A DNA stretch of 64,000 nucleotides. Source: Narcine bancroftii. Taxonomy: Eukaryota. Of this stretch, positions 6,511 through 41,206 are shown piece after piece. Position 1 is the stretch's first letter, and each line of letters starts with the position of its first letter. The stretch is from positions 159,526,001 to 159,590,000 of the forward strand of contig NC_091469.1 in NCBI RefSeq assembly GCF_036971445.1, given 5' to 3'. A program made the position numbers and the translations under genes. The notes under the pieces are model-generated. The model was not told the origin of the DNA, did no database searches, and was given only the letters and a program-made list of their open reading frames with translations.

Positions 6511-7429
6511 TTTTGAATCCCCACCCCCACCACCAACTGCCATGGAATGTCCCAAGTTCTGAACGATAAGGTTAGCAGAGAAGGTGAGAAAGAAAGGAGG
6601 CAGGGAGGTCAACAGAAAACACCTACTGTACCCCTGGATGGGAACCGACAGCAAGAGGACTTGAACGACACAGGTACCTACCATGTTGACCCATGTTGAA
6701 GTATGTATGACCCACGTAAAGTTCGACCTCCCCCCCACATTTGATCCGAAAATTTGGACCTAAAAAGTGGACTATTACACGAGTATATCCGGTTATTTTA
6801 TTTTATTTTTTCACTACCTGCTGAACTGTGTCAATGGATAGCACATAAAACAAAGCTTTTCACTGCATCTGGGAACATTGGAAACATTAATTCAATACAC
6901 TGCAGCCAAAAGCTTTCCCCATAACCAGGGAGGACCAAGGCAGGAAGCCTGAAGATGAACACCCAGTGGTACAGAAACAGCTTCTTCCCCTCCGCCATCA
7001 GATTTCTGAACAGACGATGATCCACAGACACAGCCTCACCTTCTCCTCTTGTCCACTAATTTATTTATTGTTTAAATTTCATTTGTAGCAATATGTGCAA
7101 CTAATGCTGCCCCAATACAACAAATTTCGTAACGTTCATGACATTATAGCACGACCAAAACAGGGCCACCCTCCTCACCCTGGTTTTCCCGTCAAAGCCT
7201 TTCCCCCACCATGGAAATTCCAAAGTCCCAACCGCAACGTTAACAGAGACGATACAGAAAAAGACCTACTGAAACCCTGGACGGAGATCGACAGCAGGAC
7301 CCCACAGAGACAGACCCACTGAAAGCTCATCACCAACGTTTCAGTGTCGACTTCTCTCAGCAAAATAATTCTTATTTTCCCACATTCAAAAATAGATGTG
7401 GTTGCAAATGTTTCTTCACTTCCTACCGT

Positions 7430-10695: not shown

Positions 10696-11004
10696 AGACA
10701 GGTAGTCCCCGACTCACAACTCTCCCCACAAACGTGCAAATTTTTATAAATATATACACATAAAAAGAACATAAGATTTACATGGTTTATGTTGTATTTC
10801 ACAAACTATAACAGGGTTACAAGAACCAAGATGTGCGTACTTACCTTGTTAGTCAACATTCCGGATACTGAGGTTGGGCACGGCCATCTTGATTCCTGTG
10901 CAAATATGCGAGCCTTCAGACGGTGCATGCGCTGTGGGGTTCGCGTATTGGAGTTCGGTTGGCGCATGTGGGGGAATTAAGGATGTGATTTGAATATGGG
11001 CAAC

Positions 11005-13575
11005 ACAGAAACATAGAAGATAGGAGCAGGAGTAGGTCATTCGGCCCTTCGTGCCTGCTCCGCCATTCAATGAGATCATGGCTGATCTTAAAGTACAGTA
11101 TCCCGTCCCCGCCTTCTCTCTGTAACCCCTAATTCCCTTATACTGAAGAAATATATATAATTCCCTCTTAAATATATTCAATGAACCTGCCTCTACTGCC
11201 CTCTGTGGCAATGAATTCCACAGATTCACCACCCTCTGGGTAAAGAAATTCCTCCTCATCTCGGTCATAAATGGTGTACCTATTATCCTCAAACCATGGC
11301 CCCGGGTTCTGCACTCCCCCACCATTGGAAACATCCCTTTCGCATCCATTTTGTCCAGTCCTGCCAGAATTTTATATGTCTCTATGAGATCCACTCTCAA
11401 TCTTCTAAACTCCAGTGAGTACAATCTCAAATTGTGCAATCTTTCCTCCTAAGTTATTCCTGCCATTCCAGGTATCAGCCTTGTGAATCGCCTTTGCACT
11501 CCCTCCATTGCAAGAACATCCTTCCATAGATAAGGCGACAAAATCTGCACAAAATACTCCAGGTGGGGTCTCACCAAGGCTCTGTACAGCTGCAGTAAGG
11601 TATCCTTATTCCTATACTCAAACGCTCATGATATGAAGGGCAACATACCATTTGCCTTTTTAACCACCTGTTGTACCTGCATACTCGCCTTCAGTGACTG
11701 GTGCACAAGAACCCCTAGGTCTCTCTGCACTTCCCCATCTCCAAATCTATTGCCATTCAAATAGTAATCTGCCCTCCGGTTTGTATTACCAAAGTGGATA
11801 ACCTCACATTTATCCACATTGTAGTGCATTTGCCATGTTTCTGCCCAGTCCCTCAATTTATCCAAATCACACTGGAGCTTCCTGACCCCTTCTTCAATGC
11901 ACACAACCGCTCCGCGCTTAGTGTCGTCTGCAAATTTGGAGATATTACATCCAATCCCCTCATCTAGATCATTAATGTAAATTGTGAACAGCTGGGATCC
12001 CAGTACAGATCCCTGTGGCACCCCACTGGTCACCGCCTGCCACTCAGAAAATGAGCCGTTTATCCCAACTCTCTGTCTTCTATCTGCCATCCAGTTCTCA
12101 ATCCACATCAATACTTTGCCCCCAATCCCATGAGCCTTGATTTTGGAAGCCAGTCATTTATGTGGGACCTTATCAAAGGCCTTTTGGAAATCCAGGTACA
12201 CCACATCCACTGGCTCTCCCCCATCTATTTTACCTGTCACCATCTCAAAGAATTCCAATAGATTTGTCAAGCATGATTTACCTTTTGTAAATCCATGTTG
12301 ACTCTGTCCGATCCCTTCTCTGCTCGTCATATGCTCCGCAATTATATCCTTAATAATAAATTCCATCATTTTGCCCACTACTGATGTAAGGCTCACCGGC
12401 CTATAATTCCCCGCTTTTTCTCTACTTTTTAAATAGTGGGGTAACATTATCTACCCTCCAATCCATGGCTTCTGATCCTGAGTCTATTGAGTTCTGGAAA
12501 ATAATTCTTAAAGCATCTTCTATCTGAATGTCCACTTCTTTAAGTACCCTAGGATGTAGATTATCAGGCCCTTGGGATTTATTGGCCTTCAATCCCATCA
12601 ATTTCCCCAAGACCATGTCCTTAGAGATCCTGATTTCTTTCAGCCTCTCCCTTGCATTAGTCTCTATGTTTCCCAACATCCTTGGGAGGTTATTTGTATC
12701 CTCTCTTGTAAAAACAGAACTAACGTAGGAATTTAATTGGTCTGCCATTTCCTTATTCCCCAATATATATTCCTAAAGAAATCTCTTGGTGCCTGCCACA
12801 TTGACCACCGCCAGTGGGCTGATAACGCCTCAAACCGTGCATCTTGGCGCCTCACAGTTTGGCGGGCAGCAGCCTCCTTTGAAGAAGACCGCAGAGCCCA
12901 CCTCACTGACAAAAGGCAAAGGAGGAAAAACCCAACACCCAACCCCAACCAACCAATTTTCCCTTGCAACCGCTGCAATCGTGTCTGCCTGTCCCGCATC
13001 GGACTGGTCAGCCACAAACGAGCCTGCAGCTGACGTGGACTTTTTTACCCCCTCCATAAATCTTCGTCCGCGAAGCCAAGCCAAAGAAAAAAAAATATAT
13101 ATATTCCCCTGATTCTGACTGCAATTTCACCAATCTTTTCCTCTTGACATATTTATTAAAGTTTTTGCAGCTGGTTTTTATGTTTGCCGCAAGTTTAGTT
13201 TCATAATTTATTTTTGCCCTCTTGATTAATCCCTTTGTCCTCCTTTGGTGCATCTTGAACTGCTCCCAGTCTTCGGATTTGGTACTTTTTTTGGCCAATT
13301 GATATGCTCTCTCTTTGGACCTAATGGTGTCTCTAATTTCCCTTGTTATCCACGGTTGAGTCACCTTTTTTGGTTTATTTTTATGCCAAACCGGTATAAA
13401 CGATTTTTGCAATTTCTCCATTAGATCTGTGAATGCTTTCCAATGTCTATCCACAGTCAACTCCCCCATAAACACCACCAAATCAATCTTACTGAACTCC
13501 CGTCTCATACCATCATAATTCAATTTATTTAAATTCAGGACCTTAGTCTCAGTTTTAATTTCTTCATTCTCCATG
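11005..13575 (-). mobile_element. CR1 LINE, same subfamily as 53144-55120, interrupted by an RTE
   Basis: Broken ORFs 10849-13661 with RT motifs (DFQKAFDKVPH, SGVPQGS, FADD); closely similar to 53144-55120 in opposite orientation. Confidence 0.95.
12774..13096 (+). mobile_element. RTE-clade LINE 3' fragment inserted in CR1, 11-bp TSD
   Basis: LKKSLGACHIDHRQW...CNRCNRVCLSRIGLVSHKRAC, near-identical to 56167-56430; TSD ATATATATTCC at 12763-12773 and 13097-13107. Confidence 0.93.
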
Positions 13576-15918
13576 TCGAGTTTTGCATCCTCTCTCATTG
13601 ATTCATCTACATATTGATTTTGAAAACTTTCCTGTACACATTTGACAAACTCCCAAGCCACCCAGTCCTTTTACAGTATGGGAGTCCCAATCAATATGTG
13701 GAAAGTTAAAATCGCCTACTACCACAACTTTGTTTCTTACAATGGTCTGCCAGCTCCTGACCGATTTGTGCCTCCAATTCTCTCAAACTATTGGGTGCTC
13801 CATAATACAAGCCTATTAATGTGTTGACACCTTTCCCGTTTCATAGTTCCACCCAAAAGGCTTCTGTAGATGAGCCCTCTGGACTGTCTTGTCTAAACTC
13901 AGCTATGATAATTTCCCTGACTAGCAACACCACTCCTTCCCCTTTCATCCCTCCCCCTTTATCCGTCTCAAACAACGGAACTCCAGAACATGGAACTGCC
14001 AGCCCTGCAACCAAGTCTCACTCAAGCAATAACATCATAATCCCACGTGCCCATCCACTCCCTCAGCTCATCTACCTTACCGACAATACTCCTCACATTG
14101 AAATAGATGCATCAGAGATCATTTCCTCCCCACCAACTGTATCCAAAGCAGTTGATTGATTGGTGATGCGAACTGCCACAGGGGTTCTTCTACCCCTTCC
14201 CCTCCCCTTCCCAACTGTCACCCAAGTGCCTGGCTCCTGACTCTTCGGGGTTCCTGCCTCCCTCAAACTCCTCTCCATCACTGCCTCTGCCGACCCAACG
14301 ATTCAAAGTTCATCCAGCTGCAGCTCCAGTTCCCTAACTCCGTTTATCAGGAGCTGCAGCTGGATGCACCTCTTGCAGGTGTCATCATTGGCAACAAAGT
14401 GTTGTCCCTGACTTCCCACATCCTGCAGGCGGAACACTGGACTGGCCTAACAACTGCCTCTATTACCCAATTCCTCAGTTAATTAACTAGCTTAATGAAA
14501 GAAACTTTCCACTCTTCGCTTACTGGGAGCAAACTCCTCCTCAGCCACCACAGACAAGGCCACCATGTCCCTTTCTTCCCCTGCCCTCCCCCCCCCCACC
14601 ATCACTGGCTGCTTTAACAGCTCTCCCTCTTTTTCCATGTCACCATCTATTGCCAGCTGAGGTGGTGAATGTGGGCTCAGTTTTAACATTTAAGAAGTAT
14701 TTGGTCAGGTGCATGGATGGGAGGGGTATGGAGGGATATGACCTAGGTACAGGTTAGTGGGACAAGGCAAAAATGGTTCAGCAAAGAATAGAAGGGCCGA
14801 AGAGGCCTGTTTCTGTGCTGTAATGTTCCATGGTTCTAAGCAGGCCCTTCAACCCTTCTAGTCTGTTCCAAACTCTTATTCTGCCTAGTCCCAATGACCA
14901 TATTCCTGCTAACCTTCCCATCCATGTCACAGTCCAAATGTTTCGTGTATGTCAAGTTCACTTTGGCAGCTCGTTCCACTCTCCCACTACTCATTCTGTG
15001 AAAAGTTTCCTCCTGACGTTCTCCCTAAACTTCTCCCCTAACCCATGTCTTCCAGTTCTTGTCCCACCCCAACCTCTGTGGAAAAATCCGCAGATAGAAC
15101 CACGTGGGGATGAAGGGAACAGTTAAGTGATGGGGGAACCAGCTGGGGGTGAGAGGTGTGGGATGGATATGGGAATGGGAACCAGGTAAGGGGTGGGGGA
15201 GAGGGGGTTTGGATGGATAAATAGTGGGGCAACCAGATTAGAGAGGGGGGGAACAGATAAATAATGAGAGATCACAACCAGACATCACACATGTACAGAC
15301 AAATAATACACATGCGGGACAAGTACTTTATTGATATAAATATTATTTTATGAATATGAGAGTTTTGGATGGTCAGTGTGAGCAGTTCCTTTGGTCATTC
15401 AGCATTCTCACTGCCAGTGGGAAGAAGGTGTTCCCCAGCCTTGTGGTGCCGGCTCTGATCCTCCTGTATCTCTTCCCTGACGGGATCAGCTGAAAGATGC
15501 TGTGTGTAGGTTGGAAGGGGTCCTCAATAATTTTACACACCTTCTTCAGACAACGATCCTGGTAGATCACATCAATGGTGGGCAGAGAGACTCTAGAGAT
15601 CCTCTCTGTCACACTTCTGGTCCTGTCGATTCACCTCCAATCCATTTCTCCACAGCAACTGTACCACACAGTGATGCAGCCGGCCAGGAGGCTCTCAGTA
15701 GATCTCCTGTAGGAGGTTGACATCATGGTGGCAGGTAGCCTTACCCGCCTCAGCCTTCTCTTGAAGTGCAGGCACTATTGTGCCTACCTGACAATTGAGG
15801 AGATGTTGCGTGTCCATAATAGGTCATTACTTAAGTCCACGATAGGTCACTAGTTGAGTGGGATAGAGGCCAGTAGATGATTTTCAGGTGGTACCAGGTC
15901 GGGTAGAGGGAATGGAAC
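13576..15918 (+). repeat. Segmental duplication copy A (CR1 5' part + CR1 tails + G-rich tract + Rex fragment)
   Basis: Collinear, high-identity match to 33571-36524 across several unrelated TE junctions. Confidence 0.93.
15370..15830 (-). mobile_element. Rex1/Babar 3' fragment (duplicated at 35975-36440)
   Basis: ORFs 15373..15612 and 35979..36218 are nearly identical. Confidence 0.8.
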
Positions 15919-16646
15919 AGAACCATAAAAGATAAAACACTTACACTAAGAAACAAGCCCCTGGCTCTTCTAGTATCTTCCAAACTAATATTCTGTCTAC
16001 TCCCACTTACCTGCACCCAGACCATACCACTGCAGGCCCCTCCTATCCGTGTAATGTCCAAATCTTTCTTGTATCTCAAATTCAAGTTGGCAGCTCATTC
16101 CACACTCTCTCTACTCTCTGTTATGAAAACATTCCCCCTGATGATCACCCTAAGCTTCTCCCCTTTCACCCTTAACCCATGTCCTCCAGGTCTTGTCTCA
16201 CTCCAACCTCAGTGCAACAAGTCTGCTTTCATTTACTCTGTCTATCCCACTCAGAATTTTAAATACCTCTATCAAATCCCCCTCATTCTTCTGCACTCCA
16301 GGGAATAAAGTTCTAACCTGTTGAACTTTTCCCTGTAACTCAGTTCCTGAAGTTCTGGCAGCATCTGAGTAAACCAAGTTGGGGTGGATGTGAGGCAGAT
16401 AGAACTAAGTGGGGGAGAGGAGGTAAGTGATGGGGAAACCAGAAGAGGTGAGCAGGATGGTTTAGTGAAGTGATGGGGGAACCAGGTAAGGGAGTAAGGG
16501 ATGGGGAAGTGAGTGAGGAGAGAGAGATGACCAGATGGAACCTGGTGGGTGTCGGGTGGGTGCAGCAGTCTCGTTTGTCCTCCATCCTTTGAGGGGCAAG
16601 GACTCAACGTGCAATGCACAATCATTGTTCTCGCTCTCTTTCCCAG

Positions 16647-16736
16647 ACTCGTTGAACCCCACCTTCATTTATGTGCCGGTTCTCCTGGTTCTCCTGATCA
16701 CACTTGGCATCATCCTTCTCATCTTCCAGAAAAAAG
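16647..16736 (+). CDS. Transmembrane exon of a type I Ig-superfamily receptor: (D)SLNPTFIYVPVLLVLLITLGIILLIFQKK(G)
   Basis: Strong acceptor ttctcgctctctttcccAG, donor G|gtgagc, 90 nt, phase 1/1; ~21-aa hydrophobic helix followed by KK; non-TE sequence. Confidence 0.82.
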
Positions 16737-16877
16737 GTGAGCTCCTTTCTCGCTGACCAAACACATCTCTCACTGAAGGAGGCCGAACCAATCAGCTCAC
16801 TAACCCATCTCTATTTTACTGCCAGTGCTGGGTGCAGGGTGGTGAAGTGGGAAATGGGTTATCCAACAGAAGATGGA

Positions 16878-17110
16878 TGGCACAGTTGACATAGTGATTA
16901 GGGCAACGCTGTTACAGCATCAGAGACCCAGGTTCCAATCTGGCGCTGTCTGTCAGGAGTTTCCACGTTCTCTCCATGACATGCGAGAGGTGCTCCGGTT
17001 TCCTCCCAATTTTCAAAACATACAAAGATTCTAGATTAATTGGGGTATTTGTGTGTTATGGCCTCATGAACCAGAAGGGCCTGTTACTGTACTGCATGTC
17101 CAAATTTAAA
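16878..17110 (+). mobile_element. tRNA-derived V-SINE/HE1-like SINE
   Basis: Degenerate A/B boxes (GGTTCCAATC), core GGAGTTTCCACGTTCTC...GCTCCGGTTTCCTCCC, CR1-like tail. Confidence 0.7.
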
Positions 17111-17189
17111 TGAAGTTGGGTGATCTCTGCTGCCCCTCCCCAGTTGCCTGGTTTCCCAAGGTCACATTCAAACCTCTCTTCACTTTCCC

Positions 17190-17640
17190 CAGGAACCACT
17201 CCCTCCATGACTCCCAAGTCCACTCCTCCCTTCCCATTCCTTGGCACCTACCCATGTTCACACAGGAGATGCTCCACCTGCCCCCACACCTCCTGCCTCA
17301 GCACGATTTGGGGCCCCAAACAGTCCTTCCAAGTAAAGCAACACTTCTCTTGTGAATCTACAGGGGTTATCTACTGCATCTGGTACTCCCTTTGTGGTCT
17401 CCTCTACATCGGAGAGACAGGGCACAGTCTGGGACATGGCTTCACTGAGCACCTTCTCTCCATCTACAGCAAGGACCTCCCAGTGGCCAACCATTTTAAT
17501 TCCCTGCACCATTCCAACACTGACATAACTGTCCATGGCCTGACATATGGCCAAACGAGGCCACCTACAAATTGGAGGAACAACACCTAATATTTGATCT
17601 GGGCCCCCTCCAACCAGAGACAACCTCCAATTTCCAGAAA
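17190..17640 (+). mobile_element. Penelope-like element, GIY-YIG endonuclease fragment
   Basis: CSTCPH...GPKQSFQVKQHFSCESTGVIYCIW...LYIGETG...EHL...VANHFN. Confidence 0.88.
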
Positions 17641-18209
17641 CACCCTTCCCTAAGATTTTCTTTCCCTCTCCCTCTGCCTCCTTCCCCCCCCCACCTTCCC
17701 CCCCCACCACCACCTTCCCTCTCCATTCAGAGAGTTACCCTGCCCCCATCACTTCTCAGCTTCTTCCTCTTCTCCCCTCCCACCCGTCTCCACCTTTTAC
17801 CTGTTGGCCTGTGATCCCCCCCCTTCCCCTTCCTCCCTCCTTCCCCCTCCCCACCTTTTTATTCAGGCACCTACCTCCTTTTAGCTTGTGCCTTGACCTG
17901 GAGTTCCCACCCACCTGTGCTGTGGCGATTCCCACTGGTCCTCTCCTTGTCCACACAAACCATCAGCTTGCTCAAACCGGAGTTGGATCTCAGGGATTGG
18001 CGGACAACTGGGTCAAGACTGGGTCCAAAGTTAGCATGGATAGCATGGGCCAAATGGCCTCATACTTCACTGCTGTTGTGATAAGTCTCCATTCAATTCT
18101 GCTCACTGTTCATGTGGCTGAAAGGTGTGATTACAGCTTGGTGAGTGAGGTTATAAATTTCGTGGTGAATTTGTCATGTGAATCCAAGGTGTGGGACTCG
18201 ATTCATTGG

Positions 18210-18430
18210 AGAGGGTGTCAGTGATAAGGGAGAGTGTCCATGGGTAGGATGTCTGTGAGGTAGAGTGTCCATGGGGAGTGGGTAATAGCGGAGAGTGTCC
18301 GTGGGGAGAGTTGGTGATGGGGGAGAGTGTCTGGGGGGAGAGTTAGTGATGGGGAGAATGTCTGTGGGGAGAGGGAGTGACGGGGGAGAGTGTCCAAGAG
18401 GAGAGTCGATGATGGGATGAGTCCCCCTGA
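18210..18430 (+). repeat. G-rich minisatellite, ~31-32 bp unit, ~6-7 copies
   Basis: GAGAGTGTC-like core recurs at 18230, 18260, 18291, 18323, 18354 and 18386. Confidence 0.8.
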
Positions 18431-18439
18431 GCCATGACA

Positions 18440-19729
18440 TTGAGTTCTCCAGTATTACATCATCTGCTCAATATTTGGAAGAAGATTCATGTAGAAAGGA
18501 ATAAAACAAATTACCAATTACCAAAACTAATACTGACGCAAAATCAGCTAATCCCTTTTACAATAGATAACCTTTCCTTTAGAGAATGGGAGAAAAAATG
18601 GATCAAAAGAATAGAAAATTGTTTTTCAGGTAATAAATTACTATCCTTTGAACAAATGAGGGATAAATATAATATAACTCAAGATACAGTGCTGGCATAT
18701 TACCAACTGAGATCCTACTTGAAGGATAAATTAGGAAGTAGTCTGAGTTTACCAGAGGGAAGTAATTTTGAATATGTGATTACAGATACAATGATAATCA
18801 AAAAATTTATAACAAATATGTATATTAAACTGCAAGAAAAGGAGAATGAGGAAACAAATGATAAAACTAAACAAAAATGGGAACAAGATTTAAACAAAAA
18901 GATAAAGAAGGAAACATGGGAGAAGTTATGCTCTGGAACTATGAGAAATACAATAAACACGAGGTTACGTATGATACAATATAACTGGATACACAGGCTA
19001 TACATTACACCTCAAAAGTTAAATAAATGAGACCCAACAGTATCTGACAGATGTTTTCATTGTAAAAAAGAAATGGGAACAACAATTCATGCAATCTGGA
19101 CGTGTGAGAAAGTGAAAAAATTTTGGGAAGATCTAAACCAGATATTAAATAAAATTACAGAAAACAATATACCAAAAAACCCAGAGATCTTCCTCCTAAG
19201 TAACATAAAAAACAAAGAATTTGGAATTGATTTGGAGGATGCACAAAAAAGATTTGTTAAGATAGCTCTAGCCGTAGCAAAAAAATGTATCATGTCAACC
19301 TGGAAATTGGAAGATAATTTGAGAATACAACAATGGTATATAGAAATGAATAAATGTATTCCATTAGAAAAAATAACATATAGTTTAAGAAATAATATTG
19401 AAATATTTGAACAAATATGGGAGCCTTACATGAAACACAATAGAGAAAACCTACCGGGGACATTCACTACCTAAATTAACGAAAGGAGAAGGAAATGAAA
19501 AGAATTGACTCAGTGGAATTTCTGGTTTATTTTTATTGAATGACAACATTGTTTGACTGGTTTAATGTATCTTAGATTCTGTACTTTAAATGAATGGGGG
19601 TGGAGATAGGGAGGGTGGGATGGGAAGAAGGAGGGGGGGAGAAAATGACACTATATATTTGAAAAGGAAAATGTATGTATTTTGGTCAATGTGGTTTATG
19701 GTGTGAAAAATAAAAAATTTTAAAAAAAA
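18440..19729 (+). mobile_element. L1/Tx1 LINE 3' part (ORF2 C-terminus with CCHC knuckle, 3' UTR, poly-A)
   Basis: ORFs 18434..19030 and 19073..19474 are in one frame, split by a single TGA; CFHC...HAIWTC; AATAAA and A-run at ~19709-19729. Confidence 0.93.
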
Positions 19730-21860
19730 CCTTGACCCTCTCCTGTCTGCATCACCTCTGTTGTCGGTATAACTACTTGAGGCTCTCCAGCCTGTATCTC
19801 CCTGTTGTAGGTGTAACTACCCAGAGCCCCTCTGTCTATATATCCCCTCATGTTGGTATAACCGTCCAGAGGCCCTCCTGCCCATATCTCCCCTTTTGTC
19901 AGTATAACTGCCCTGAGCCCATTCAGTCTGTGTCTCCCCTGTTGTAGGTATAACCACCCTGAGCCGCTGCAGCCTGTATCTCCCCTGTTGGTGGTATAAC
20001 CACTCTGAACCCCTCCAGCCTCTAACTCCCCTGTTGTAGGTATACCCACTCTGAGACCCTCCTGTCTGTATCTCCCCTGTTGTAGGTATAACCGCCCTTA
20101 GACCTCCTACCTGTATCTCCCCTGTTGTCGGTATAACAGTCCTGATTCCCGCCTGCCTGTATCTCCCCTGTTGTTGGTATAACCACGCTGAGCTCCTCCA
20201 GCCTGTATCGCCCCTAGTGTAGTTATAATAGCCCTGAGCCCCTCAAACCTCTATTTCCCATGTTCTCGGTATAACTACCCTGAGACACTCCTGTCTGTAT
20301 CTCTCCTTTTGTAGGTATAACAACCCTGAGACCCTACAGGCTGCATCTTCCCTCATCTAGGTATAACCGCCCTCAGCCCCTCAAGCCTGTATCTCCCCTG
20401 TTGTAGGTATAACCACCATGAGCCCCTCAATCCTGTATCTCCCCTCTTGTCTGTGTTACCACCTTGAGACCCTCCTGTCTGTATCTCCCCTGTTGTAGGT
20501 ATAACCACCCTGAGGCCTTCCAGCCTGCATCTCCCCTGTTGTCGGTATACCCACCCTCAGACACTGCTGTCTGTATTTCCCCTGTTGTCGGTATAATGCC
20601 CTGAGCCACTTCAGCCTGTATCTCCCCTGTTGTAGGTATCACTACCCTGAGACCCTCCTGCCTGTATCTCAGCTGTTGTCGGTATAACTACCCTGAGACC
20701 CTCCTGTCTGCATCTGCCCTGTTGTAGGTATAACCTCCCAGATCATCTCCTGACTGAATCTCCCCTGTTATCCGTATAACAGCCCTGAGCCCCTCCAGCC
20801 TGTATTTCCCCTACTGTAGGTATAACCATCCTGAGCACCTCCAGCCTGTATCTCCCTGTTGTAGGTGTAACCAACCTGAGCCCCTCCAGCCTGTATCACC
20901 CCTGTTGTAGGTATATCCACCCTGAGCCCCTCCTGTCTGTATCTCCCCTGATGTAGGTATAACCACCCATAGGCCCTCCTGCCCGTATCTCCCCTGTTGT
21001 CGTTATAACTGCCCTGAACCCCTACAGCCTCTAACTCCCCTGTTGTTGGTATAACCACGCTGATCCCCTCCAGCTAGTATCTCCCCAGATGTCTGTATAA
21101 TCAACCTGAGCCCCTCCTGTTTGTATTTCCCCTGTTTAGGTATAACCGCCCTGAGACCCTGCTACCTGTATCTCCCCTGTTATTGTTATAACTGCCCTGA
21201 ACCCCTCCAGCCTCTAACTCCCCTGTTGTAGGTATAACCGCCCTGAGACCCTGCTACCTGTATGTCCCCTGTTCTTGGTATAACATCCCTGAGCCCCTCC
21301 AGCCTGTATCTCCCCTGGTGTATGTATAACCACCCTCAGCCCCTCAAGCCTGAATCTCCCTTGTTGTAGGTATAACCACTCTGAGACCCTCCAGCCTGCA
21401 GCTTCCTTGTCGATATCACCCCCCTGAGCTCCTCCAACCTGTATGTCCCCTGTTGCAGGTATAACCACCCTGATCCCCTCCAGCCTGTATCCCCCCTGTT
21501 GTTGGTATATCCACCCTGAGCCTCTCCTGTCAGTATCTTCCCTGTTGTACATATAACCACCCTGAACCCCTACAGCCTCTAACTCCCCTGTTGTTTGTAT
21601 AACCGCCCTCAGCCCCTGCAGCCTGTATCTCCCCTTTTGTCTGTATAACCGCCATGAGCCCCTCCAGCCTGTATCTCCCCTGTTTTAGGTATAACCGCCC
21701 TGAGCCCCTACAGCCTGTATCTCCTCAGTTGTAGGTATAACCATCCAGAGCCCCTCCAGCCTGTATCTCCCCTGTTTTAGGTATAACCGCCCTGAGCCCC
21801 TCCAGCCTCTTACTCCTCTGTTGTAGGTATAATCACCCTGAGCTCCTCCTGCCTCGAACA
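19728..21860 (-). repeat. 46-bp tandem satellite (~46 units), reverse orientation to 1033-2100
   Basis: Units CTGTATCTCCCCTGTTGTAGGTATAACCACCCTGAGCCCCTCCAGC are the reverse complement of the 1033-2100 consensus. Confidence 0.95.
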
Positions 21861-21998
21861 CCCCTGTTCTACTGTGTTTATGTCTCAATCAGACCCAGCA
21901 GCATCTGACGACGTGTGATGAACAGATTCGCATCCTGAAACTCCCGGTGTTTTCTCCAGTTCTTCCAATACTGATTCCCCTCCCCTCTCTCCCTGCAG

Positions 21999-22391
21999 AT
22001 TATTCCTTCCAAGGTTGGACAATGTCTGGTGCTGATGTGGTGTCAGCCGTGGAAGGGGCCTCTGCCATGTTGCTGTGTCGTTTCATCCACCCACCCACGG
22101 AGGAGACCCTCACTGGTACCATCAAGTGGTACAAGATTAAACCAGGAGTTAAATCAGTTCCTCAACTTGTGTTTAACTGTACAAATCCCGGCCTTGGATC
22201 CTCCCGATGTGATCGGGCAACACAGGAGGTCAGAGGGGATCGTTTCACGTTCGTGGGGAACCTGTGCCGAAGAGATGCCTCGGTCATGGTGAATCGTCTG
22301 AGTCGGGAGGATGAAGCTCAGTATTGGAGCCGCGTGGAGCTCAACATCGGTAACTTTCAAACTGCACTTTCAACGAACCTGACAGTGAGAG
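21999..22391 (+). CDS. Ig V-set exon, Siglec-15-like N-terminal domain (possibly a decaying copy)
   Basis: Acceptor tcccctctctccctgcAG, donor G|gtgagc, 393 nt, phase 1/1, open. W.M...VSA.EG.SA.L.C.F.HP, C-strand W, VFNC...RC extra Cys pair, RF.FVGN..RRDAS..V.RL..ED..QYWSRVE match the Siglec-15 V-domain pattern as I recall it. Confidence 0.88.
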
Positions 22392-22544
22392 GTGAGCAAA
22401 GAGCCCACCTGCTGCAGTGGGTCACAGTCTTCACTCCTCCCCCAACTAATCATATTGTTTTCATAACTTACAAGTGGAATAAAGCAGGATAATTCTTTAT
22501 GCTCATTCACAACCCAAGTCTGCACATGGTTGAGTTGAGACCCC

Positions 22545-22880
22545 CTACATTCGGAGCCCCAAACAGTCCTTCCAAACAAAGCAACTCTTCAGTTGTGAAT
22601 CTGCATGGGTCATCTACTGCATCTGGTCTCCCGCTGTGGTCTCTTCTACACTGTGGAGGCTGGATGCCGACCGTTGAGCACCTTCACTGCCAGAGCAAGG
22701 AGCTCCCAGGGGCCAATCATTTCAATTCTCCTCGCCCCCCTCCTGCACCAACGTTTCTGTCCCTGGCCTCATGCACTGCCAGACCAAAGCTACCCGCAAA
22801 TTGGAGGAACAATCCCTCATATCCCGTCTGGGCCTTCTCCAACCAGACGGCGTGAATGCCGATGTCTCCATTTCCGTTAA
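22545..22880 (+). mobile_element. Penelope-like GIY-YIG fragment
   Basis: Frameshifted homolog of 17190 copy (PKQSFQ, IYCI, ANHFNS, RKLEEQSLI.RLG.LQPDG.N). Confidence 0.8.
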
Positions 22881-23029
22881 TACCTCCCCATGCCCCCGTC
22901 TCTCTTTCTCTTTCCCCATCCTTCTGTCTTCTTTCCTTAGTGCCCCACCTCCCCCTTTCCTCTCCTTTCAGAAAGGCCCCCCCCACTCCTAACACTTCTC
23001 AGCATTTTTCCCTTAATTTAATTTTTAAT

Positions 23030-23260
23030 TAAATTTAGATGTACAGCATGGTAATTGGCTCTTTTGGCCCACGTGTCCGTGATGTCCAATTTACAACCAA
23101 TTAACATAAACTCCTGGAACATTTTTGAATGGTGGGAGGAAACAGAAGCCCCCGGGGAAATCCCACAAATATATGGGGAGAACGTAGAAACTTCAGGATT
23201 TGAACCCTGATCCCAATCGTTGGCGCTGTAACAGCGTTGTGGTAACTGTTATGCCAACCC
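23030..23260 (-). mobile_element. V-SINE/HE1-like SINE
   Basis: Same core as other SINE copies; B-box GGGTTCAAATCC on minus. Confidence 0.65.
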
Positions 23261-23519
23261 ATGGTGACCCACCCACCTATAACCTTTTGCCTGTGGGCCT
23301 GTGCCCCTCCTCCTCCCACTATTTTATCCAGGTGGTAACAGAGGGCTCAGGCCCGAAACATTGGCTTCCTTTTCCTTCCTGACGATGCTCAGTGATCTGC
23401 TGAGTTTTCCCGAGATGAGGATCCATTTTCCATCTCAGGTCACATCAGGGTTCCCTTCATGCACATTACTTGAGTGAGGAGCTTCATCGGCAGTTGGACA
23501 GGATCCGGTCTTTCAGAGA

Positions 23520-24370
23520 CCAGCTGCAGGTGATGGAGTCTTTCAGAAGGCCTGTTGTACGTTGGCCTTTATTAGTTGGGGATTGAGCTGAGGAGTTCTG
23601 AGATAATGTCACAGCTCGACAAATATCCTGTTAGACCACAACCGTGTTACAGGAAGGATGTGGAAGCTAAGGAGAGGGTGCAGAGGAGATAGGCCAAGGT
23701 GTTTCCTGGATTGGAAAACAAGACTTATTAGGCAAGTTTAGCAGAGCTGGGACTTTTCTCTTTGATGCGAAGAAGGACATGAGGAGACTTGACCGAGGTC
23801 GACAAGATTAGGAGAGACATAGATGGGGTGAACAGACAGCACCTGTTCCCCAGGGCCGGATCAGCAAACACCAGAGGACACGTGTACAAGGTGAAGGGAG
23901 GGACATTTAGGGGAGATATCAGGGGTAAGTTTGTTTTTAGACGGAGACTGGTGGGCACAGTTAACTGGAATTCACTGACTATGTGGAGTTCAGATGGCTG
24001 GCTCCTCCCTTGGCTCCACCTCACCCCCCCCCCCCAATATAAACCCTGGATTTCCTGCCTTACTTCAGATTCACCCAAGGACCATTGTATCCACTGGCCA
24101 TTGATTGTAAGCTATTAAAAGTGTGTCTGTGCTCCTCTCTCGTCTCTGAGTGCAATCAGTTATGTTACAGTGGGTGCCTAGAACACCTTGCCAGGGGTAG
24201 TGGTGGAGGCTGGTATAATAGGGACATTTAAAAGACTCTTAGACTCAGGGATGCAAGAAAAATTGAGGGTTGTGTGTGTGAGGTAGGGAAAGCTTATACT
24301 GTTGAGTAGGTTTATATGGTCAGCACAACATTGAGGGCTGAAGGGCCTGTGCTGTGCTGGAGTGTTTTAT
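23520..24370 (+). mobile_element. Degenerate CR1 3' portion containing a putative solo LTR
   Basis: RQHLFPRAGSANTRGHVYKVKGG...; CR1 resumes at 24170. Confidence 0.8.
23956..24169 (+). mobile_element. Putative 214-bp solo LTR with 5-bp TSD
   Basis: GTGGG at 23951-55 and 24170-74; internal TATA (AATATAAA) and ATTAAA; ends TTACA; 5' end is not TG. Confidence 0.6.
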
Positions 24371-24626
24371 GTTGTTCAATAAAATTGGAAGGGGAGCAGA
24401 GAAGATTGACCAGAATGTTGCCAGGATTGGAAGGGTTGAGTAAAAGGGGAGGTTGGATAAGGTGGGTCTTTATTCCCTGGAGCAGAGGAAGATGAGGGAC
24501 CTGGATGAAGTGAATGCTCACAGAATTGTCGCCAAGGTAGATGATCCCGAACCCAGAGGGCCTTAGTTTGAGGTAAGAAGGGAAAGACAGAAGAGGGACC
24601 TGATGGCCATCTTTTCACACAGAGAT

Positions 24627-24860
24627 GGGCTCCACGGTTGGCGTTGTGGTTACAACACCAGCAATTGGAACTGGGGTTCAAAACCTGCCCTGTCTGTAAG
24701 GAGTTTGCATGTCCTCTCCATGTCTGTGTGGGTTACCTCCGGGGGTTTTGGTTTCCTCCCACCCTTTAAAGTGTACTGAGGGTTGTAGGTTAATTGGGCA
24801 GCGCGGGCTTGTGGGCTGAAAGGGCCTGTATCTGTGCTGTATATCTCAATTTTAAAATAG
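24627..24860 (+). mobile_element. V-SINE/HE1-like SINE
   Basis: B-box GGGGTTCAAAACC, CTGTCTGTAAGGAGTTTGCATG core, GGTTTCCTCCCAC. Confidence 0.7.
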
Positions 24861-25162
24861 AGTTGTTTGTATCTGGAATGAGCTGCCAGAGGATCCTGTA
24901 GAAATGGGCACGATTGCAACATCCCAAAGAAATTTGGTGGGGTGAACGGATGAGAAGGTTTGAAAGATATGGGATAAATGCAGGAAAATGGGACTGGCCC
25001 AGAATTGCAGCTGGGTCAGTATGAAAGAGTCAGGCCAAAGGGCCTGTTTTGTGCTCTACAACCCCACGACTATTATTTTACAAGGTGGAAATTTTGGCAG
25101 GAATTGACTGTGAAGATGGGGGCAGGTCGACTGATACATTCTGGTGTCTGTCCTTCCATCAG

Positions 25163-25558
25163 CTCCTAACAGGAAGGGCTCAGTGGTGAGTGGGACTGAG
25201 GGAGGTTCAGTCACCTTACCCTGTGTGTTCCAACGGCCTCTGTCTGACCTCACCCTGCACACAGTCACTTGGATGATGAAGGATCCTTATTGGCACGTTC
25301 TCACATTCAGGCACAGATCTGATGGATCGTGGGTGGCAGAAAGTGATGCAACTCGATACGAGCTCGTCGGGGACCCTGAACATGGAAACACCTCAAACCG
25401 GATAAACCAGCTGAGTGTACGAAACAGTCACGGCTACCTGTGTCTGGTGGAGTCCGGAAAACCAGCTCATTTCCGTTACCCAATGGAATATTATGATCAT
25501 GCGAAGACCCCGTATATTTATCTGAGCCAGTGCGAGGCCCACTTGGTGGACTCTCCCG
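25163..25558 (+). CDS. Second Ig V-set exon (Siglec/PILR-like fold, long F-G loop)
   Basis: Acceptor tgtctgtccttccatcAG, donor G|gtaaga, 396 nt, phase 1/1, open; GTEGGSVTLPC, VTW, RYELVGDPEHGNTS.RINQL, YLC. Confidence 0.87.
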
Positions 25559-26599
25559 GTAAGAAACCATTGGCACTTTCTCCAGTGTGTGGTGAGGGGG
25601 AGGGCAGGGTGGAGGGAGTGGTGGAGAGTATGTCACAGGGTGGGACACACCAGGCATTTAGCTGCGACCTGCGCCCCATGTTCAGAACCTTGAACTGAAG
25701 GTCAGATCTGTCGCTGCCAGAATTGGGCCAACTCCCTTCTTTGACACCCATTTGTCTCACCTCTTGTTCGGCACCTGCTGATTACTGGCCTCTGTCCATC
25801 AACCATGAACCTTCCCTGATCCACCAATCCCTCTCTGGCTCCTGCCCAACCCTTCCCACCTTTACTTAATTATTTAAGATTCCCTTTTTGTCATGTAATG
25901 TTATACAACATGTAATATTACATGAAATCGGTTTCCTCAGGTAGAATATGGCCATTAGTGTCACGTGAGGGGAAGAAACAAAGGAGAGTCCCTTCAGAGT
26001 CATTGAGTGTCCGTGGATTTGCCACCAACCCTCCCGCAGCCTCTGCAGCCACACAGACTCCTGTTTGATCCATCGACAACCCAAGCTCCAGATCCAAACC
26101 CTGATCCTATCAGGAAGCCTTCAGTGCCCGAGGCCATTTGGGAGCCCTTCTTCCCCTCAACTCCCTCTCAAATCCAGGTTCCAATATCTTGTTCCAAAGA
26201 TCCAGTCTCCAGCAGCCCAATGGGTTCCCCAACCACAAGTCACCCACAGCCTGTGTGGGTTCCTCAGCCACTGAGCCCCTCGCTGCTCCACCGCCATGGT
26301 TACCACCCTTATAGTCATCGCTTCTGCTTCACCTGCTCAACTTTTGGGGGGTGGGATGTTCTCCCCATTTCTGCTGCTCCCCGCAGACTTCAACCCCTCA
26401 CGGCCACTGCTGAGCATGGGCACCACCATCTTGGGTGCAGTCTTCTGTGGATGCAGGATTTGATTTCCAGACACCGTGGGCTCCTTTAATGGGCCATTTA
26501 AAGCCTGTACGGAGCCACTGGCATTAGAAGGCCTTTGGAGCAGCCCCGTGTCCCCGCTCTCCCAGGTCTGTACCAGCGGCAGCACTGTCGGGAGAGGAG

Positions 26600-31239: not shown

Positions 31240-34200
31240 AGAGGTCATAGAACACTACAGCACAGAAACAGGCCTTTCAGCCCTTCTGGTTCTGCTAACC
31301 TGCACCTAGTCCATATCCCTCCATACCAAACCCATCCATGTACTTGTCTAAATTCTTCTTAAATGTTAAAATTGTGCCCACATTAACCACTGATCGTTCC
31401 TCACTCCACCACCTTCTGTTCCCCCTAAACCTTTCCCCTTTCACCCTAAAGCCATGTCCTCTCGTATTTCTCTCTCCTAATCTAAGTGGAAAGTGCCTTC
31501 TCCCATTTACTCGGACTATACCCTTCATAATTTTGTAAACCTTGATTAAATCTCCACTTATTCTTCTTCATTCCAAGGAATAAAATCCAAACCTGTTTAA
31601 TCTTTCCCTGTAACTCAACTCCTGAAGACTCAGCAACATCCTAGTAAATCTTTTCTGCACTTTCAATCTTATTGATAGCCTTCCTGTTGCTAGGCAACCA
31701 GAACTGCACACAATATTCCAAATTTGGCCTCACCAATGTCTGAAATAACTTCAAGATAACATCCCAACTCTTATCCTCAATACTTAGATTTATAAAGGCC
31801 AGATGCCAAAAGCTTCCTTTACAACCTGTCAACATGTGACACCCCCTTCAGGGAACAATGTACCTGTATCCCCAGGTCCCTTTCCTCCTCCACACTGCTC
31901 AGTGCCTGATCATTTACAGTGAAGGTCCTTTCTGGATTTGCTCTTCCAAAATTCAACACCTCACACTTGCCTGCATTAAACTCCATCATCCATTTACTGG
32001 CCCAGTTTCCCAGCTGGTCCAGATCCTTCTTCCAGCTTTGAAAACCTTCCTCACTGTCCATAATGTCTCCTACCTTTGAGTCAGTGGCAAATTTGCTGAT
32101 CCAATTTACCACATTATCATCCAGATCATTGATATGGACAATAGTCCCAACACAGATTCCCGAGGCACACCACTCATCACAGGCCTCCGGTCTGAGAAGC
32201 AATGATCCACGAGCACTCAGTTTTCTCCCCCACAGACAATTTCAAATCCAGTTTACAACCACTCTATGTAGTGTTACGAGTCCAGAGGGCCCAAAAACCC
32301 AGCAGCAGTAGAAATTCACCAAGACAAAGCTGCTTTTAATTTTGTTTGAACATAAAAACAGAATCAAGCTTTAACTTATTACTACTAACTTAATCCCCTA
32401 CTAATTCTAAGTGCACATGGATGTAATGTGTTTGTGTTCAGGAAAGTTCTGTCTCACTGTCCAATCATTCACTTTTCACTTCTCCAAGTTTACCCATTAT
32501 TATTCTAACATATCCTCTAACACTCGTGTCTTAACCTTCTGAACTAACCTCCCTTGTAGAATATTTCCCTCATCCACCCTTCTTGGTAACTTCTTTCAAA
32601 AACTCAACAAGATTTGTTAACCTTGAGCTACAACACACAAATCCATGCTGACTGGACTTAATCAGTCCATGTCTGGACTAAACCTAAACAACCTATCTCT
32701 CAGAACTCCGAATAAATTACCTACTACTGACATCAGGCTCACTGGCCCATAGTTACCTGGTTTACTCCAGGAGACTTTCTTAAACAGGGGGATAACAGGA
32801 GCCACACTCCAATCCCCTGGCACCTCTCCGGTGGCTATGAACATGTTGAATCAGTCAGGGCCCCTGCAATTTCAACACTGGTCTCTCTCAAGGTCCGAGT
32901 GAATATCAGATCTGCCCCAAGAGATTTGTCTACCTTTTTTCGTTGTCAGGCAGCGATCAATCTCCATATGTTTCATGTCACTTCTATTTGTTTCCCTTCC
33001 ATCCATATGCACGGTACCAGTTTCCTGAGGATATACTGATGTAAAAATAAACTGTCTAATTCCTCCCCCATTTAGTGAGGCTCCACACATCGTTGACCAC
33101 TCTGATCCTCCAGGGGACCATTTTTCCCTTCCTGATTTCATTCTTTAGTATTCCCTTACATTTTCGATACACTGCGACTACCTCATTTCCTCCTTGTTGC
33201 CTATAACAGGTTACACAACTCTCTCTTCTTCCGAATCCAATCCCCAATATCCCTTGAAAACCAAGGTTCCCTATGCCTGTTAATTTTCCCTTTAATCCTG
33301 GTAGGAACGTACCTCAAAATCTCGCCCTTGAGTGCCTTCCACTTGTTTGATGAATCCTTGCCAGAAAACAACTTGTTCCAGTAGATTCCTCCAAGATCCT
33401 TTCTCATTTCCACAAAATTGGCCTTTCTCCAATGTAGAACCTCAGCACGAGGACCAGATCTATCCTTATCCATAAGTAACTTGAATCTAATTACATTATG
33501 GTCACTGGACCCAAAATTCTCACTGACACAGACTTCTGCCAACTGACCTGCCTGGTTCTCTAATAGGAGATCAAGTTTTGCATCCTCTCTCATCGGTTCA
33601 TCTCCATATTGATTTTGAAAACTTTCCTGTACACATTTGACAAACTCCCAAGCCACCCAGTCCTTTTACAGTATGGGAGTCCCAATCAATATGTGGAAAG
33701 TTAAAATCACCTACTACCACAACTTTGTTTCTTACAATGGTCTGCCAGCTCCCGACTGATTTGTGCCTCCAATTCTCTCAAACTATTGGGTGCTCCATAA
33801 TACAAGCCTATTAATGTGTTAACACCTTTCCCGTTTCATAGTTCCACCCAAAAGGCTTCTGTAGATGAGCCCTCTGGACTGTCTTGTCTAAACTCAGCTG
33901 TGATAATTTCCCTGACTAGCAACACCACTCCTTCCCCTTTCATCCCTCCCCCTTTATCCGTCTCAAACAACGGAACTCCAGAACATGGAACTGCCAGCCC
34001 TGCAACCAAGTCTCACTCATAGCAATAACATCATAATCCCACGTGCCCATCCACTCCCTCAGCTCATCTACCTTACCGACAATACTCCTCACATTGAAAT
34101 AGATGCATCAGAGATCATTTCCTCCCCACCAACTGTATCCAAAGCAGTAGATTGATTGGTGATGCGAACAGCCACAGAGGTTCTCTGCTTCTTCTGCCCC

Positions 34201-34730: not shown

Positions 34731-36524
34731 TCCCCATCTATTATCTGAATGGCTCACTGGCCCTAATCAATTAACTCAATTGCAGCCTCCTGACTCCAAC
34801 TCCAAAAATGTTGAGGGAAACTTCTTCACACAGAGAGCGATGGGAGTGTGGACCGAGCTGCCAGCTGAATGTGGGCTTAGTTTTAACATTTAAGAAGTAT
34901 TTGGACAGGTGCATGGATGGGAGGGGTATGGAGGGATATGACCTGGGTACAGGTTAGTGGGACTAGGCAAAAATGGTTCAGCAAAGAATAGAAGGGCCGA
35001 AGAGGCCTGTTTCTGTGCTGTAATGTTCCATGGTTCTAAGCAGGCCCTTCAACACTTCTAGTCTGTTCCAAACTCTTATTCTGCCTAGTCCCAGTGACCA
35101 TATTTCTGCTAACACTCCCATCCATGTCACAGTCCAAATGTTTTTTGCATGTCAAGTTCACTTTGGCAGCTCGTTCCACTCTCCCACTACTCACTCTGTG
35201 AAAAGTTTCCTCCTGATGTTCTCCCTAAACTTCTCCCCTAACCCACGTCTTCCAGTTCTTGTCTCACCCCAACCTCAGTGGAAAAATCCTGTCTACATTT
35301 ACTCTGTGTGTACTCCTCAAAATTTTAAATACCTCTATTAAATATCCCCTAATTCTTCTACGCTCCAAGGAACAAAGTCCTATCCTGTTTAACTTTTCCT
35401 TTTACCTCAGTTCCTCAAGTCCCGGCAACATTCCTGCAAACCAAGTGAGGGTGGATTCTGGACAGATAGAATCTGGGGAAGAAGGGAACAGTTAAGTGAT
35501 GGGGGAACCAGGAGGGGGAGAGAGGTGTGGGACAGATATGGGAATGGGAACTAGCTAAGGGGTGGGGGAGAGGGGGGTTTGGATGGATAAATAGTGGGGC
35601 AATGAGATTAGAGGGGGGGGAACATTTAAATAATGAGAGATCCAGGTTGGGGTGGGAGAGGAAACAGGTAAATGATAGAGGATCCAGTTGGGGAAGCCTG
35701 GGGTGTGGTACAGGTCAGTGTTCAGGGAACTGGGTAGGGGAGAGTGGGATGGGACAGGGGCTGGTAGGTGATAGGTGGAACCAGGTGGGAGAGAAAGGGT
35801 CAAGTTTATTGACATCTCTTTGTACATGTACAACCCAATGAAACAGTGTCTCCAGTCCTCGATTCAAACTCGTAGACTCACAACCAGACATCACACGTGT
35901 ACAGACAAATAATACACATGCGGGACAAGTACTTTATTGATATAAATATTATTTTATGAATATGAGAGTTTTGGATGGTCAGTGTGAGCAGTTCCTTTGG
36001 TCATTCAGCATTCTCACTGCCAGTGGGAAGAAGGTGTTCCCCAGCCTTGTGGTGCCGGCTCTGATACTCCTGTATCTCTTCCCCGACAGGATCAGCTGAA
36101 AGATGCTGTGTGTAGGTTGGAAGGGGTCCTCAATAATTTTACACACCCTCTTCAGACAACGATCCTGGTAGATCACATCAATGGTGGGCAGAGAGACTCT
36201 AGAGATCCTCTCTGTCACAATTCTGGTCCTGTCAATTCACCTCCAATCCATTTCTCCACAGCAACTGTACCACACAGCGATGCAGCCGGCCAGGAGACTC
36301 TCAGTCGATCTCCTGTAGGAGGTTGACATCATGGTGGCAGGTAGCCTTGCCCGCCTCAGCCTTCTCTTGAAGTGCAGGCACTATTGTGCCTACCTGACAA
36401 TTGAGGAGATGTTGCGTGTCCATAATAGGTCATTACTTAAGTCCACGATAGGTCACTAGTTGAGTGGTACAGAGGCCAGTAGATGATTTTCAGTTGGTAC
36501 CAGGTCGGGTAGAGGGAATGGAAC
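33571..36524 (+). repeat. Segmental duplication copy B
   Basis: Matches 13576-15918, plus three extra segments and a C-rich expansion at 34580-34690. Confidence 0.93.
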
Positions 36525-36744
36525 CAAATTTTGAAGCTTCTGCTCATTTAATAATAATCTGCCTGTTTATTTTCTCATCCAAAAATGACCAACCGTACAT
36601 TACTCAACATTGGATCTCATCGGCCATTTCTTTGCCCCTCTCCCAAACTGTCCAAGCCTCTCTGCAACCTTTTGGTTTCTTGAACACTTCCTACTCCACC
36701 ACCCATCTTGGTGTCATCTGCAAACTTGGCCACAAAACCATTCA

Positions 36745-38047: not shown

Positions 38048-39090
38048 CACATATGTCAAACTCTGGCCCGCGGGCCAATTATATTTGGCCCGCAAGATCA
38101 TATTAAATATATATTAGAGTTGGCCCGCTGGCCGCCGCGGCAGTATAGGGCATGCACACTGAAGGTGAAAATGAAGACGCCGGAGGTGTGGAGGGATCTC
38201 AGAGTCCCGAATCCCGGGGATCGGAGCGCTGCACTCAGCCCGCCCGGCTCCTGGACACACAGACGCGGCTGGAGTTGGGGACCATCCTCGCTGGATCTGC
38301 GCTTCAGCGGCGACGCCGGGCCGAACGTCTCGTTGGCGATGCCTTCCCCCTCGCTCAGTGCGCGGCGGACCCTGCCTCCCGCTCCTTTTGTTGGAGACGA
38401 GCCCGGTGCCGTGAGATCGCAGTTTAATCCCTCTCCAACCATGGGAGGGAGGTGGGAGCAACGCGCTCTTCTCAGCCAATTCCTCCACTGCCCCGGACGC
38501 CGGCGTTTCAACGGGGGGTTTGGGTGACTTCGTCAGGCGACCGACCTGTTGGTCCAAGACAAGGGGAGAGCGTACAAACTCCACACAGACAGCACCTGAA
38601 CTCGGGTGAACGTGGAGCTGCGACCCCACATTCCACATCAGGACTGTGTGTAAGATTGGGAGCAGTGAGACGGAAGCTTATTTTGTTCCTGTGATTTAAG
38701 CCTTTCTTGGGGTGGGGGGGTCCTTCTCTGACCACTTGCCTAACAATTAACCTAATCAGATGTGGAGTTACCACAATACAACAGTTCTCAACCTTTTTCT
38801 TTCCACTCGCGTCCCTGTGCCATTGGTGCTCTGTGATTAGTAAGGGATTGCTTAAGGTGGTCTGTGGGTGGAAAGAAAAAGTTTGAAGACCACTGCTTTA
38901 ATCATCCCTCATTGACTCGTCATGTGCACGGTTTCAGATCTCCAAAGGAAATGGGCCAATGACAATGACAATGAAAGAGTTTATCCAAAACTATTATTAA
39001 ACATTTATTTTAATAAAAGTTTAGCATTACATATGTTGAAAGAAGAGAAAACATGCAGATGTTGTTGAAAATTTTCAATAATATTTAGTT
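38048..39090 (+). mobile_element. Non-autonomous hAT (Charlie-like) DNA transposon with CpG-rich interior and nested inserts
   Basis: Left end CACATATGTCAAACTCTGGCCCGCGGGCCAA with GGCCCG subterminal repeats, preceded by GTGTAGAG (NTCTAGAN-like target). Right TIR not found. Confidence 0.6.
38782..38895. mobile_element. Short hAT-type MITE with ~25-bp TIRs
   Basis: CAGTTCTCAACCTTTTTCTTTCCAC ... GTGGAAAGAAAAAGTTTGAAGACCACTG. Confidence 0.65.
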
Positions 39091-39149
39091 TAGTTAGGAG
39101 TCAGAGGGACAAGAGAAAGCAAGAATTTGGAGCTCAGTATTTAGTATCG

Positions 39150-41171: not shown

Positions 41172-41206
41172 GTGCCATTTACATCAATGTGGGGATGAAC
41201 CAATGA
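41172..41206 (+). CDS. Candidate terminal cytoplasmic exon (G)AIYINVGMNQ*
   Basis: Good acceptor cttgcttcttgtgtttcAG in non-TE DNA; phase-1 reading gives a YxNV tyrosine motif then a stop. Phase is assumed. Confidence 0.35.

What the first reader, a model, noticed from the sequence alone, without database searches (positions are those of the whole stretch)
16647..25558. Permuted receptor: TM exon upstream of, and splice-compatible with, two V exons
Seen: all three exons are + strand, phase 1/1, open and have strong splice sites, so TM-V1-V2 would splice in frame. I found no phase-1 leader exon for V1 and no TM exon after V2. Known: Siglec-type genes run leader-V-(C2)-TM-tail. Inference: either two half-genes were juxtaposed by rearrangement (most likely), or this is a new chimeric transcript in which the hydrophobic exon serves as signal/anchor. 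The KK after the helix argues for an original type I topology.
Basis: partly seen in the sequence, partly recalled or inferred. Interest (0 to 1): 0.7.

Follow-up and report, generated by a model that had tools for sequence, protein, structure and literature searches.

The report
Fused leftovers of two receptor genes
The odd exon order is a scar where the membrane-anchor piece of one immune-receptor gene copy abuts the leaderless front half of another copy in a ray's much-duplicated gene cluster, and the result is likely a dead gene, not a new kind of receptor.

Summary
The three exons are real, open and phase 1/1. They belong to a tandem cluster of Siglec-15-like leader-V-V-TM-tail receptors. 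All 5 other TM-bearing copies in 744 kb have the normal order. The window copy is a mosaic. A 7.4-kb fragment (11002-18443) holds the TM exon. At 18442, with 2 nt of microhomology, it joins the middle of a retroelement in another copy's leader-V1 intron. That second copy lost its leader there, and its own TM and tail exons c1-c5 by two deletions (36524/36744, 39090/39096); terminal exon c6 survives at 41172. The TM fragment carries an insertion shared with copy D and absent from the V1-V2 copy, so the halves come from different genes. Splice compatibility is trivial: V1, V2, TM and c3-c5 are all symmetric exons in this family. TM-V1-V2-c6 is in frame, but has no leader and no in-frame ATG in the TM exon. 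RNA-type contigs bridge leader-V1 and V1-V2 of paralog type in 3 of 3 runs. The TM-V1 junction remains untested. Verdict: ordinary birth-and-death debris.

The parts
7271..7330 (-). Leader (signal peptide) exon of neighbouring intact gene A; not part of the + strand remnant
   Evidence: exact match to residues 1-20 of P0020; exon map
10997..11002 (.). Left breakpoint: gene A's upstream region meets the 3' end of a CR1-like element of the TM fragment
   Evidence: repeat class recalled from ORF translations
11002..18443 (+). Orphan fragment of a first gene copy (W1): end of V2-TM intron, TM exon, and TM-c1 intron up to about 90 nt before c1
   Evidence: 15269-18416 is 90.7-91.6% identical to A/B/C; 11004-14651 is collinear with copy D; D-shared insertion junction at 13576-13581
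16647..16736 (+). TM exon, phase 1/1, no in-frame ATG
   Evidence: 19-residue Kyte-Doolittle mean 3.04
18442..18443 (+). Fusion breakpoint, 2-nt (GA) microhomology, TM-c1 intron joined to interior of an L1-like element of a leader-V1 intron
   Evidence: only the window itself spans this junction among the listed matches
18442..21868 (+). Truncated leader-V1 intron of second copy (W2): L1-like 3' piece plus minisatellite, continuous with gene A's intron
   Evidence: L1 piece 95-98.5% to A's intron copy per 200 nt; first 200 nt 98.5% vs 91-93% for 4 other copies
21999..22391 (+). V1 exon, Siglec-15-like V-set; F-strand Arg present, F-strand Cys replaced by Ser (as in intact gene A)
25163..25558 (+). 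V2 exon, V-set; 9 private amino-acid changes incl. D87N in the D-x-x-x-Y-x-C motif
36524..36744 (+). Deletion junction: about 13 kb of paralog sequence with TM and c1-c4 missing, about 220 nt of repeat filler
39090..39096 (+). Deletion junction: about 1.9 kb with exon c5 missing
41172..41206 (+). Surviving terminal exon c6 (AIYINVGMNQ-stop), phase-1 acceptor intact; AATAAA at 42272

Best explanation
The TM exon and the two V exons are remnants of two different copies of a leader-V-V-TM-tail immune-receptor gene, joined at a mapped breakpoint, and together they are likely a non-coding pseudogene. Shown: the normal family order, the four breakpoints, the missing leader, the missing TM-c5 exons of the V1-V2 copy, and the different ancestry of the two halves. 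Inferred: two tandem + strand copies were fused by a microhomology-type deletion running from the first copy's TM-c1 intron to the second copy's leader-V1 intron. The first copy's promoter-leader-V1-V2 was lost at the CR1-like element at 11002, possibly by recombination between repeats. Two more deletions removed the second copy's TM and c1-c5. The order of events is not established. With no first exon, the remnant would make no receptor; at most it serves as a gene-conversion donor for its neighbours (untested).
For: 5 of 5 other TM-bearing copies (D-, E+, A-, C+, B+) have V before TM, with TM 15-23 kb downstream of V2. None of 39 family proteins fetched has a TM-strength segment ahead of a V domain; wherever a TM-like helix is present it follows the V domains. 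Base-level junction at 18442: the left side matches the paralog TM-c1 intron, the right side matches the interior of gene A's L1-like intron element. Deletion junctions at 36524/36744 and 39090/39096 skip exactly the paralog segments holding TM, c1-c4 and c5. The TM fragment and the V1-V2 copy both retain the same 2.3 kb of intron at 94-98% identity. Only D, of 5 intron copies tested (A, C, D, E, W2), shares the TM fragment's insertion junction. No in-frame ATG in the TM exon; the first in-frame Met is residue 38 of the 304-codon spliced model, inside V1. RNA-type contigs bridge leader to V1 in 3 of 3 runs and V1 to a paralog-type V2 in 2 of 3; the main contig's 29 listed alleles match copies B and C at 29 of 29. 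Other debris exists in the cluster: leader plus partial-V1 remnants F and F2, and a frameshifted fourth V exon in E. Weak: 0 of 39 database proteins carry window-private peptides, while copies A-E all have annotated products.
Against: All four exons are still open, with intact splice sites, and TM-V1-V2-c6 reads in frame to a stop with a downstream AATAAA. No stop or frameshift marks it as dead. Private changes (2 synonymous, 13 non-synonymous over 208/662 sites) do not separate it from annotated copies such as D (6/16). Gene A's promoter region lies about 9 kb upstream, head to head, and could drive divergent transcription (inference).
Confidence: 0.86

Rival explanations
1. The remnant is transcribed, probably divergently from gene A's promoter, as a spliced non-coding or abortive RNA (TM-V1-V2-c6). 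At most it gives a leaderless cytosolic V1-V2 peptide from the Met inside V1.
For: Intact splice sites, terminal exon and poly(A) signal; the V1 Met has A at -3; head-to-head layout with gene A.
Against: No first exon identified. A product without a signal peptide would likely not form Ig disulfides (established knowledge).
Confidence: 0.06
2. An expressed permuted receptor: an unrecognised upstream phase-1 exon supplies a start, and the TM helix anchors V1-V2 followed by the c6 tyrosine motif.
For: TM-V1-V2-c6 is an uninterrupted frame. The TM exon has no private changes.
Against: No in-frame ATG or leader. Frame compatibility is a family property. Charge (D before, KK after the helix) predicts N-out/C-in topology, putting the V domains in the cytosol (recalled rule). 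No relative with this order among 39 proteins.
Confidence: 0.04
3. Local misassembly of a highly duplicated cluster produced the order.
For: The cluster has near-identical roughly 200-kb duplicates and a 200-N gap at C1:159691362.
Against: The window has no N. Its exons plus flanks are distinct from every paralog: TM 91-94%, V1 85-96%, V2 86-95%. The junctions are base-precise, with microhomology or short filler.
Confidence: 0.04

Closest known systems
Siglec-15
   Same: Best PDB match for both V exons; the F-strand Arg aligns in V1; some shark and ray relatives are auto-named Siglec-15.
   Different: The family has two V-set domains and no C2-set hit. The TM has no lysine, whereas Siglec-15 uses a TM lysine for DAP10/12 (PMC7226832, passages read). 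Intact copies have tyrosine-motif tails. The window copy is a broken mosaic.
Pseudogenes in paired-receptor clusters, e.g. SIGLEC16P beside SIGLEC11
   Same: Head-to-head paralogs, homogenised sequence, non-functional copies next to functional ones (PMC5701461, passages read).
   Different: SIGLEC16P is inactivated by a 4-bp deletion. Here multi-kb deletions fused halves of two genes. A conversion-donor role for this copy was not tested.
Modular domain immune-type receptors (MDIR) of skate
   Same: Multigene activating/inhibitory V-domain receptors of a cartilaginous fish (PMC3031540, passages read).
   Different: MDIRs are described as CD300/TREM/pIgR-like. V1 here matches Siglecs best; V2 has pIgR/TIM hits behind Siglec-15. 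No MDIR-named protein was among the hits, and no direct comparison was made.

Membership tests
Ray leader-V-V-TM-tail receptor cluster (as a functional member) | Leader exon upstream of V1 on the same strand | tested here: not met
   nearest + strand leader is about 180 kb upstream and belongs to copy E
Ray leader-V-V-TM-tail receptor cluster (as a functional member) | TM and tail exons c1-c5 downstream of V2 | tested here: not met
   deleted at 36524/36744 and 39090/39096
Ray leader-V-V-TM-tail receptor cluster (as a derived fragment) | Exon and intron homology to intact copies | tested here: met
Siglec-15 orthologues | N-terminal V-set domain with essential F-strand Arg | tested here: met
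   V1 YWSRVEL aligns to YFCRVEF of 7zoz_A
Siglec-15 orthologues | One V-set followed by a C2-set domain (recalled) | tested here: not met
   second domain is V-set; no C2-set family hit in 6 of 6 proteins scanned
Siglec-15 orthologues | Lysine inside the TM helix | tested here: not met
   0 of 6 TM exons of this cluster have one; definition from PMC7226832
Siglecs | Sialic-acid binding | not testable with these tools
   needs a glycan array
Type II (signal-anchor) receptor | Initiator Met and positive charges before the helix | tested here: not met
   no in-frame ATG; D before and KK after the helix; rule recalled
MDIR | Phylogenetic grouping with skate MDIR sequences | not tested
   no MDIR sequence was returned by the searches
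Unprocessed pseudogene | No functional transcript or protein | tested here: inconclusive
   structure argues for it; the TM-V1 junction could not be tested directly

The most novel reading that the evidence does not exclude
Deletions have created a permuted gene, TM-V1-V2-c6, transcribed divergently from gene A's promoter through an unrecognised first exon. It would make a membrane-anchored protein with inverted topology: Siglec-like V domains and a tyrosine motif in the cytosol. That would be exon permutation caught at birth in an immune-receptor cluster.
Probability: 0.04. Interest if true: 0.55.

Novelty: new member of a known kind. Interest (0 to 1): 0.14.

Why it matters
As it stands it is an ordinary example of birth-and-death turnover in an immune-receptor cluster, with unusually clear breakpoints. 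It shows that symmetric phase-1 exons make scrambled remnants look spliceable. If a TM-V1 transcript with a start codon were found, it would be a rare newborn permuted receptor. The surrounding family (V-V Siglec-15-like receptors in rays, with apparent inhibitory and activating TM types) is of more interest than the remnant. My paper searches listed no paper whose title or abstract start describes it; most subscription papers are outside that library.

Tried and rejected
Sequencing-run search on 21900-25700: no RNA holder listed; three runs were added by species label only. Laying contigs of those runs on V1: 8 pieces, none 95% or more alike to the window copy, and no TM-type loose end at the V1 acceptor. 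Contigs show presence, not absence; the runs are guessed to be RNA, come from one study and may be other individuals, so this is not used as evidence. The TM exon and V2 were not covered by any read laying. dN/dS-type counts did not discriminate. Cut-and-paste relocation of the V1-V2 copy's own TM segment was rejected, because both places retain the same 2.3 kb of intron. Simple intragenic tandem duplication was disfavoured, because the insertion marker is shared with D and absent from W2; later gene conversion could mimic this. An independent 5'-truncated L1 insertion at 18442 was disfavoured, because the piece is continuous with A's L1-satellite-V1 layout. Earlier scan notes near this place: none. 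No fold or complex prediction was run, as it would not decide expression. No supplements were opened.

Full report
Observation. The three exons are present as described: TM 16647-16736, V1 21999-22391 and V2 25163-25558. All are on the + strand, open, with AG/GT ends identical in position to their paralogs. V1 and V2 are Pfam V-set domains, and their best solved-structure match is Siglec-15. The window is G000:C1:159526001-159590000. Proteins that match neighbouring copies letter for letter are labelled Narcine bancroftii, a ray, by their sources.

The family. Database proteins P0001-P0005 and their cluster members give the normal gene: leader, V1, V2, TM, then tail exons c1-c6 with tyrosine motifs. 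I mapped the ten exon types of copy A over 744 kb around the window. Five copies have the normal order: D (-), E (+, with V1-V2 duplicated and its fourth V exon frameshifted), A (-), C (+) and B (+). Two further remnants, F and F2, hold only a leader and the 3' end of V1. The window's + strand holds TM, V1, V2 and c6. The leader in the window (7330-7271) is on the minus strand and belongs to A. More distant V exons at 157.4-158.2 Mb were not mapped.

Anatomy. (1) Up to 10997 the window is A's upstream region. (2) 11002-18443 is a fragment of a V2-TM intron, the TM exon and the TM-c1 intron, ending about 90 nt before c1. (3) At 18442, with a 2-nt microhomology, it joins the interior of an L1-like element. 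In A that element lies in the leader-V1 intron and continues further upstream. The first 200 nt are 98.5% identical to A's copy and 91-93% to four others. The satellite, V1 and V2 then follow as in A. (4) At 36524/36744 about 13 kb of paralog sequence containing TM and c1-c4 is missing, and at 39090/39096 about 1.9 kb containing c5. (5) c6 and the 3' flank follow; beyond 41466 the flank is 99% identical to C's. The labels L1, CR1 and RTE are my recognition of ORF translations, not library results.

Two genes, not one. The TM fragment and the V1-V2 copy both contain the same 2.3 kb of intron (13576-15918 versus 33571-36524, 94-98%), so the TM piece was not simply moved. The fragment also carries a repeat-insertion junction at 13576-13581 that D shares across 200 of 200 nt (95.5%). 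A, C, E and the V1-V2 copy align only to the right of it. A deletion between two tandem + strand copies explains junction (3). The order of the other losses is not shown.

Could it work as a gene? Frame compatibility carries no weight, because V1, V2, TM and c3-c5 are all symmetric exons. The spliced model TM-V1-V2-c6 has 304 codons and one stop, at its end, and an AATAAA at 42272; this is the best point for the novel reading. But the TM exon has no in-frame ATG, its only ATG is out of frame, and the first in-frame Met lies inside V1. No leader-like sequence lies on 7401-22000. With D before and KK after the helix, the positive-inside rule (recalled) would leave the V domains in the cytosol. 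Private substitutions (2 synonymous, 13 non-synonymous) include D87N in V2's conserved motif but do not differ in pattern from annotated copies. None of 39 fetched proteins has the permuted order or window-private peptides; the search tool rates such a blank as weak.

RNA. Contigs of three runs guessed to be RNA bridge the family leader to the V1 acceptor in 3 of 3 runs, and V1 to a paralog-type V2 start in 2 of 3. The 29 alleles I took from the main contig match B and C at 29 of 29 and A at 11 of 29. The table was cut by the tool, with 33 rows not shown. This shows the family's normal splicing. It does not test the window copy, and the junction 16736>21999 remains open.

Comparison. The intact genes look like Siglec-type receptors: V1 keeps the F-strand Arg. 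They fail Siglec-15 membership on the C2-set domain and on the TM lysine (PMC7226832, passages read). Non-functional copies beside functional head-to-head paralogs are known from SIGLEC11/SIGLEC16P (PMC5701461, passages read). MDIRs were considered from passages of PMC3031540 and not tested. Other papers were seen only as search listings.

Verdict. An expressed permuted receptor is not excluded but unlikely (0.04). Interest 0.14.

Noticed in passing
window 22001-22390 and paralogs A, B, C; P0009, P0012: The canonical B-F disulfide of V1 is lost in different ways. B and C lack the B-strand Cys, A lacks both, and the window copy lacks the F-strand Cys; two Mobula proteins have Trp at the B-strand Cys. 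The Siglec-15-like extra Cys pair is kept in these copies. B/C alleles are the ones in the main RNA-type contig.
   Followed up: partly
P0006, P0009, P0011, P0012, P0016, P0036, P0039 versus P0010, P0014: Relatives in other rays and sharks have two TM types. One has a lysine inside the helix and, in the full-length proteins read, a short tail (activating-like). The other is uncharged, with a tyrosine-motif tail in P0014 (inhibitory-like). This looks like a paired V-V Siglec-15-like receptor family. A search of G000 with P0009 listed V-exon matches only, none for the lysine-type TM (short exons can be missed).
   Followed up: partly
G000:C1:159.57-159.97 Mb: A roughly 200-kb tandem duplication (F+C and F2+B), with a 200-N gap at 159691362. 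B and C are identical in V2, while A and C are 99-100% identical over TM-c6 exons: recent conversion or duplication, or partly an assembly duplicate.
   Followed up: partly
G000:C1:159379317-159390904 (copy E): Copy E has an internal V1-V2 duplication with a frameshift in the fourth V exon. Its annotated products (P0001, P0017) end before the TM and would be secreted.
   Followed up: no
G000:C1:159482729-159488657 (copy A) and copy D tail: The tyrosine-motif tail exon c3 is triplicated at 100% identity in A, and tail exon blocks are duplicated in D, giving variable numbers of tyrosine motifs.
   Followed up: no
window 56170-58779 (-), 3493-5004 (-), 3-1010 (-): Long retroelement ORF remnants (RTE-like, CR1-like, L1-like; classes recalled). 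An RTE-like 317-nt 3' piece at 12772-13088 is 100% identical to a copy at C1:159619864, suggesting recent activity or conversion.
   Followed up: no
window 1033-2104 (-), 19730-21868 (+), 39653-40345 (+), 18207-18440 (+): Intronic minisatellite arrays shared with the paralogs; the fusion breakpoint lies right after one of them.
   Followed up: no
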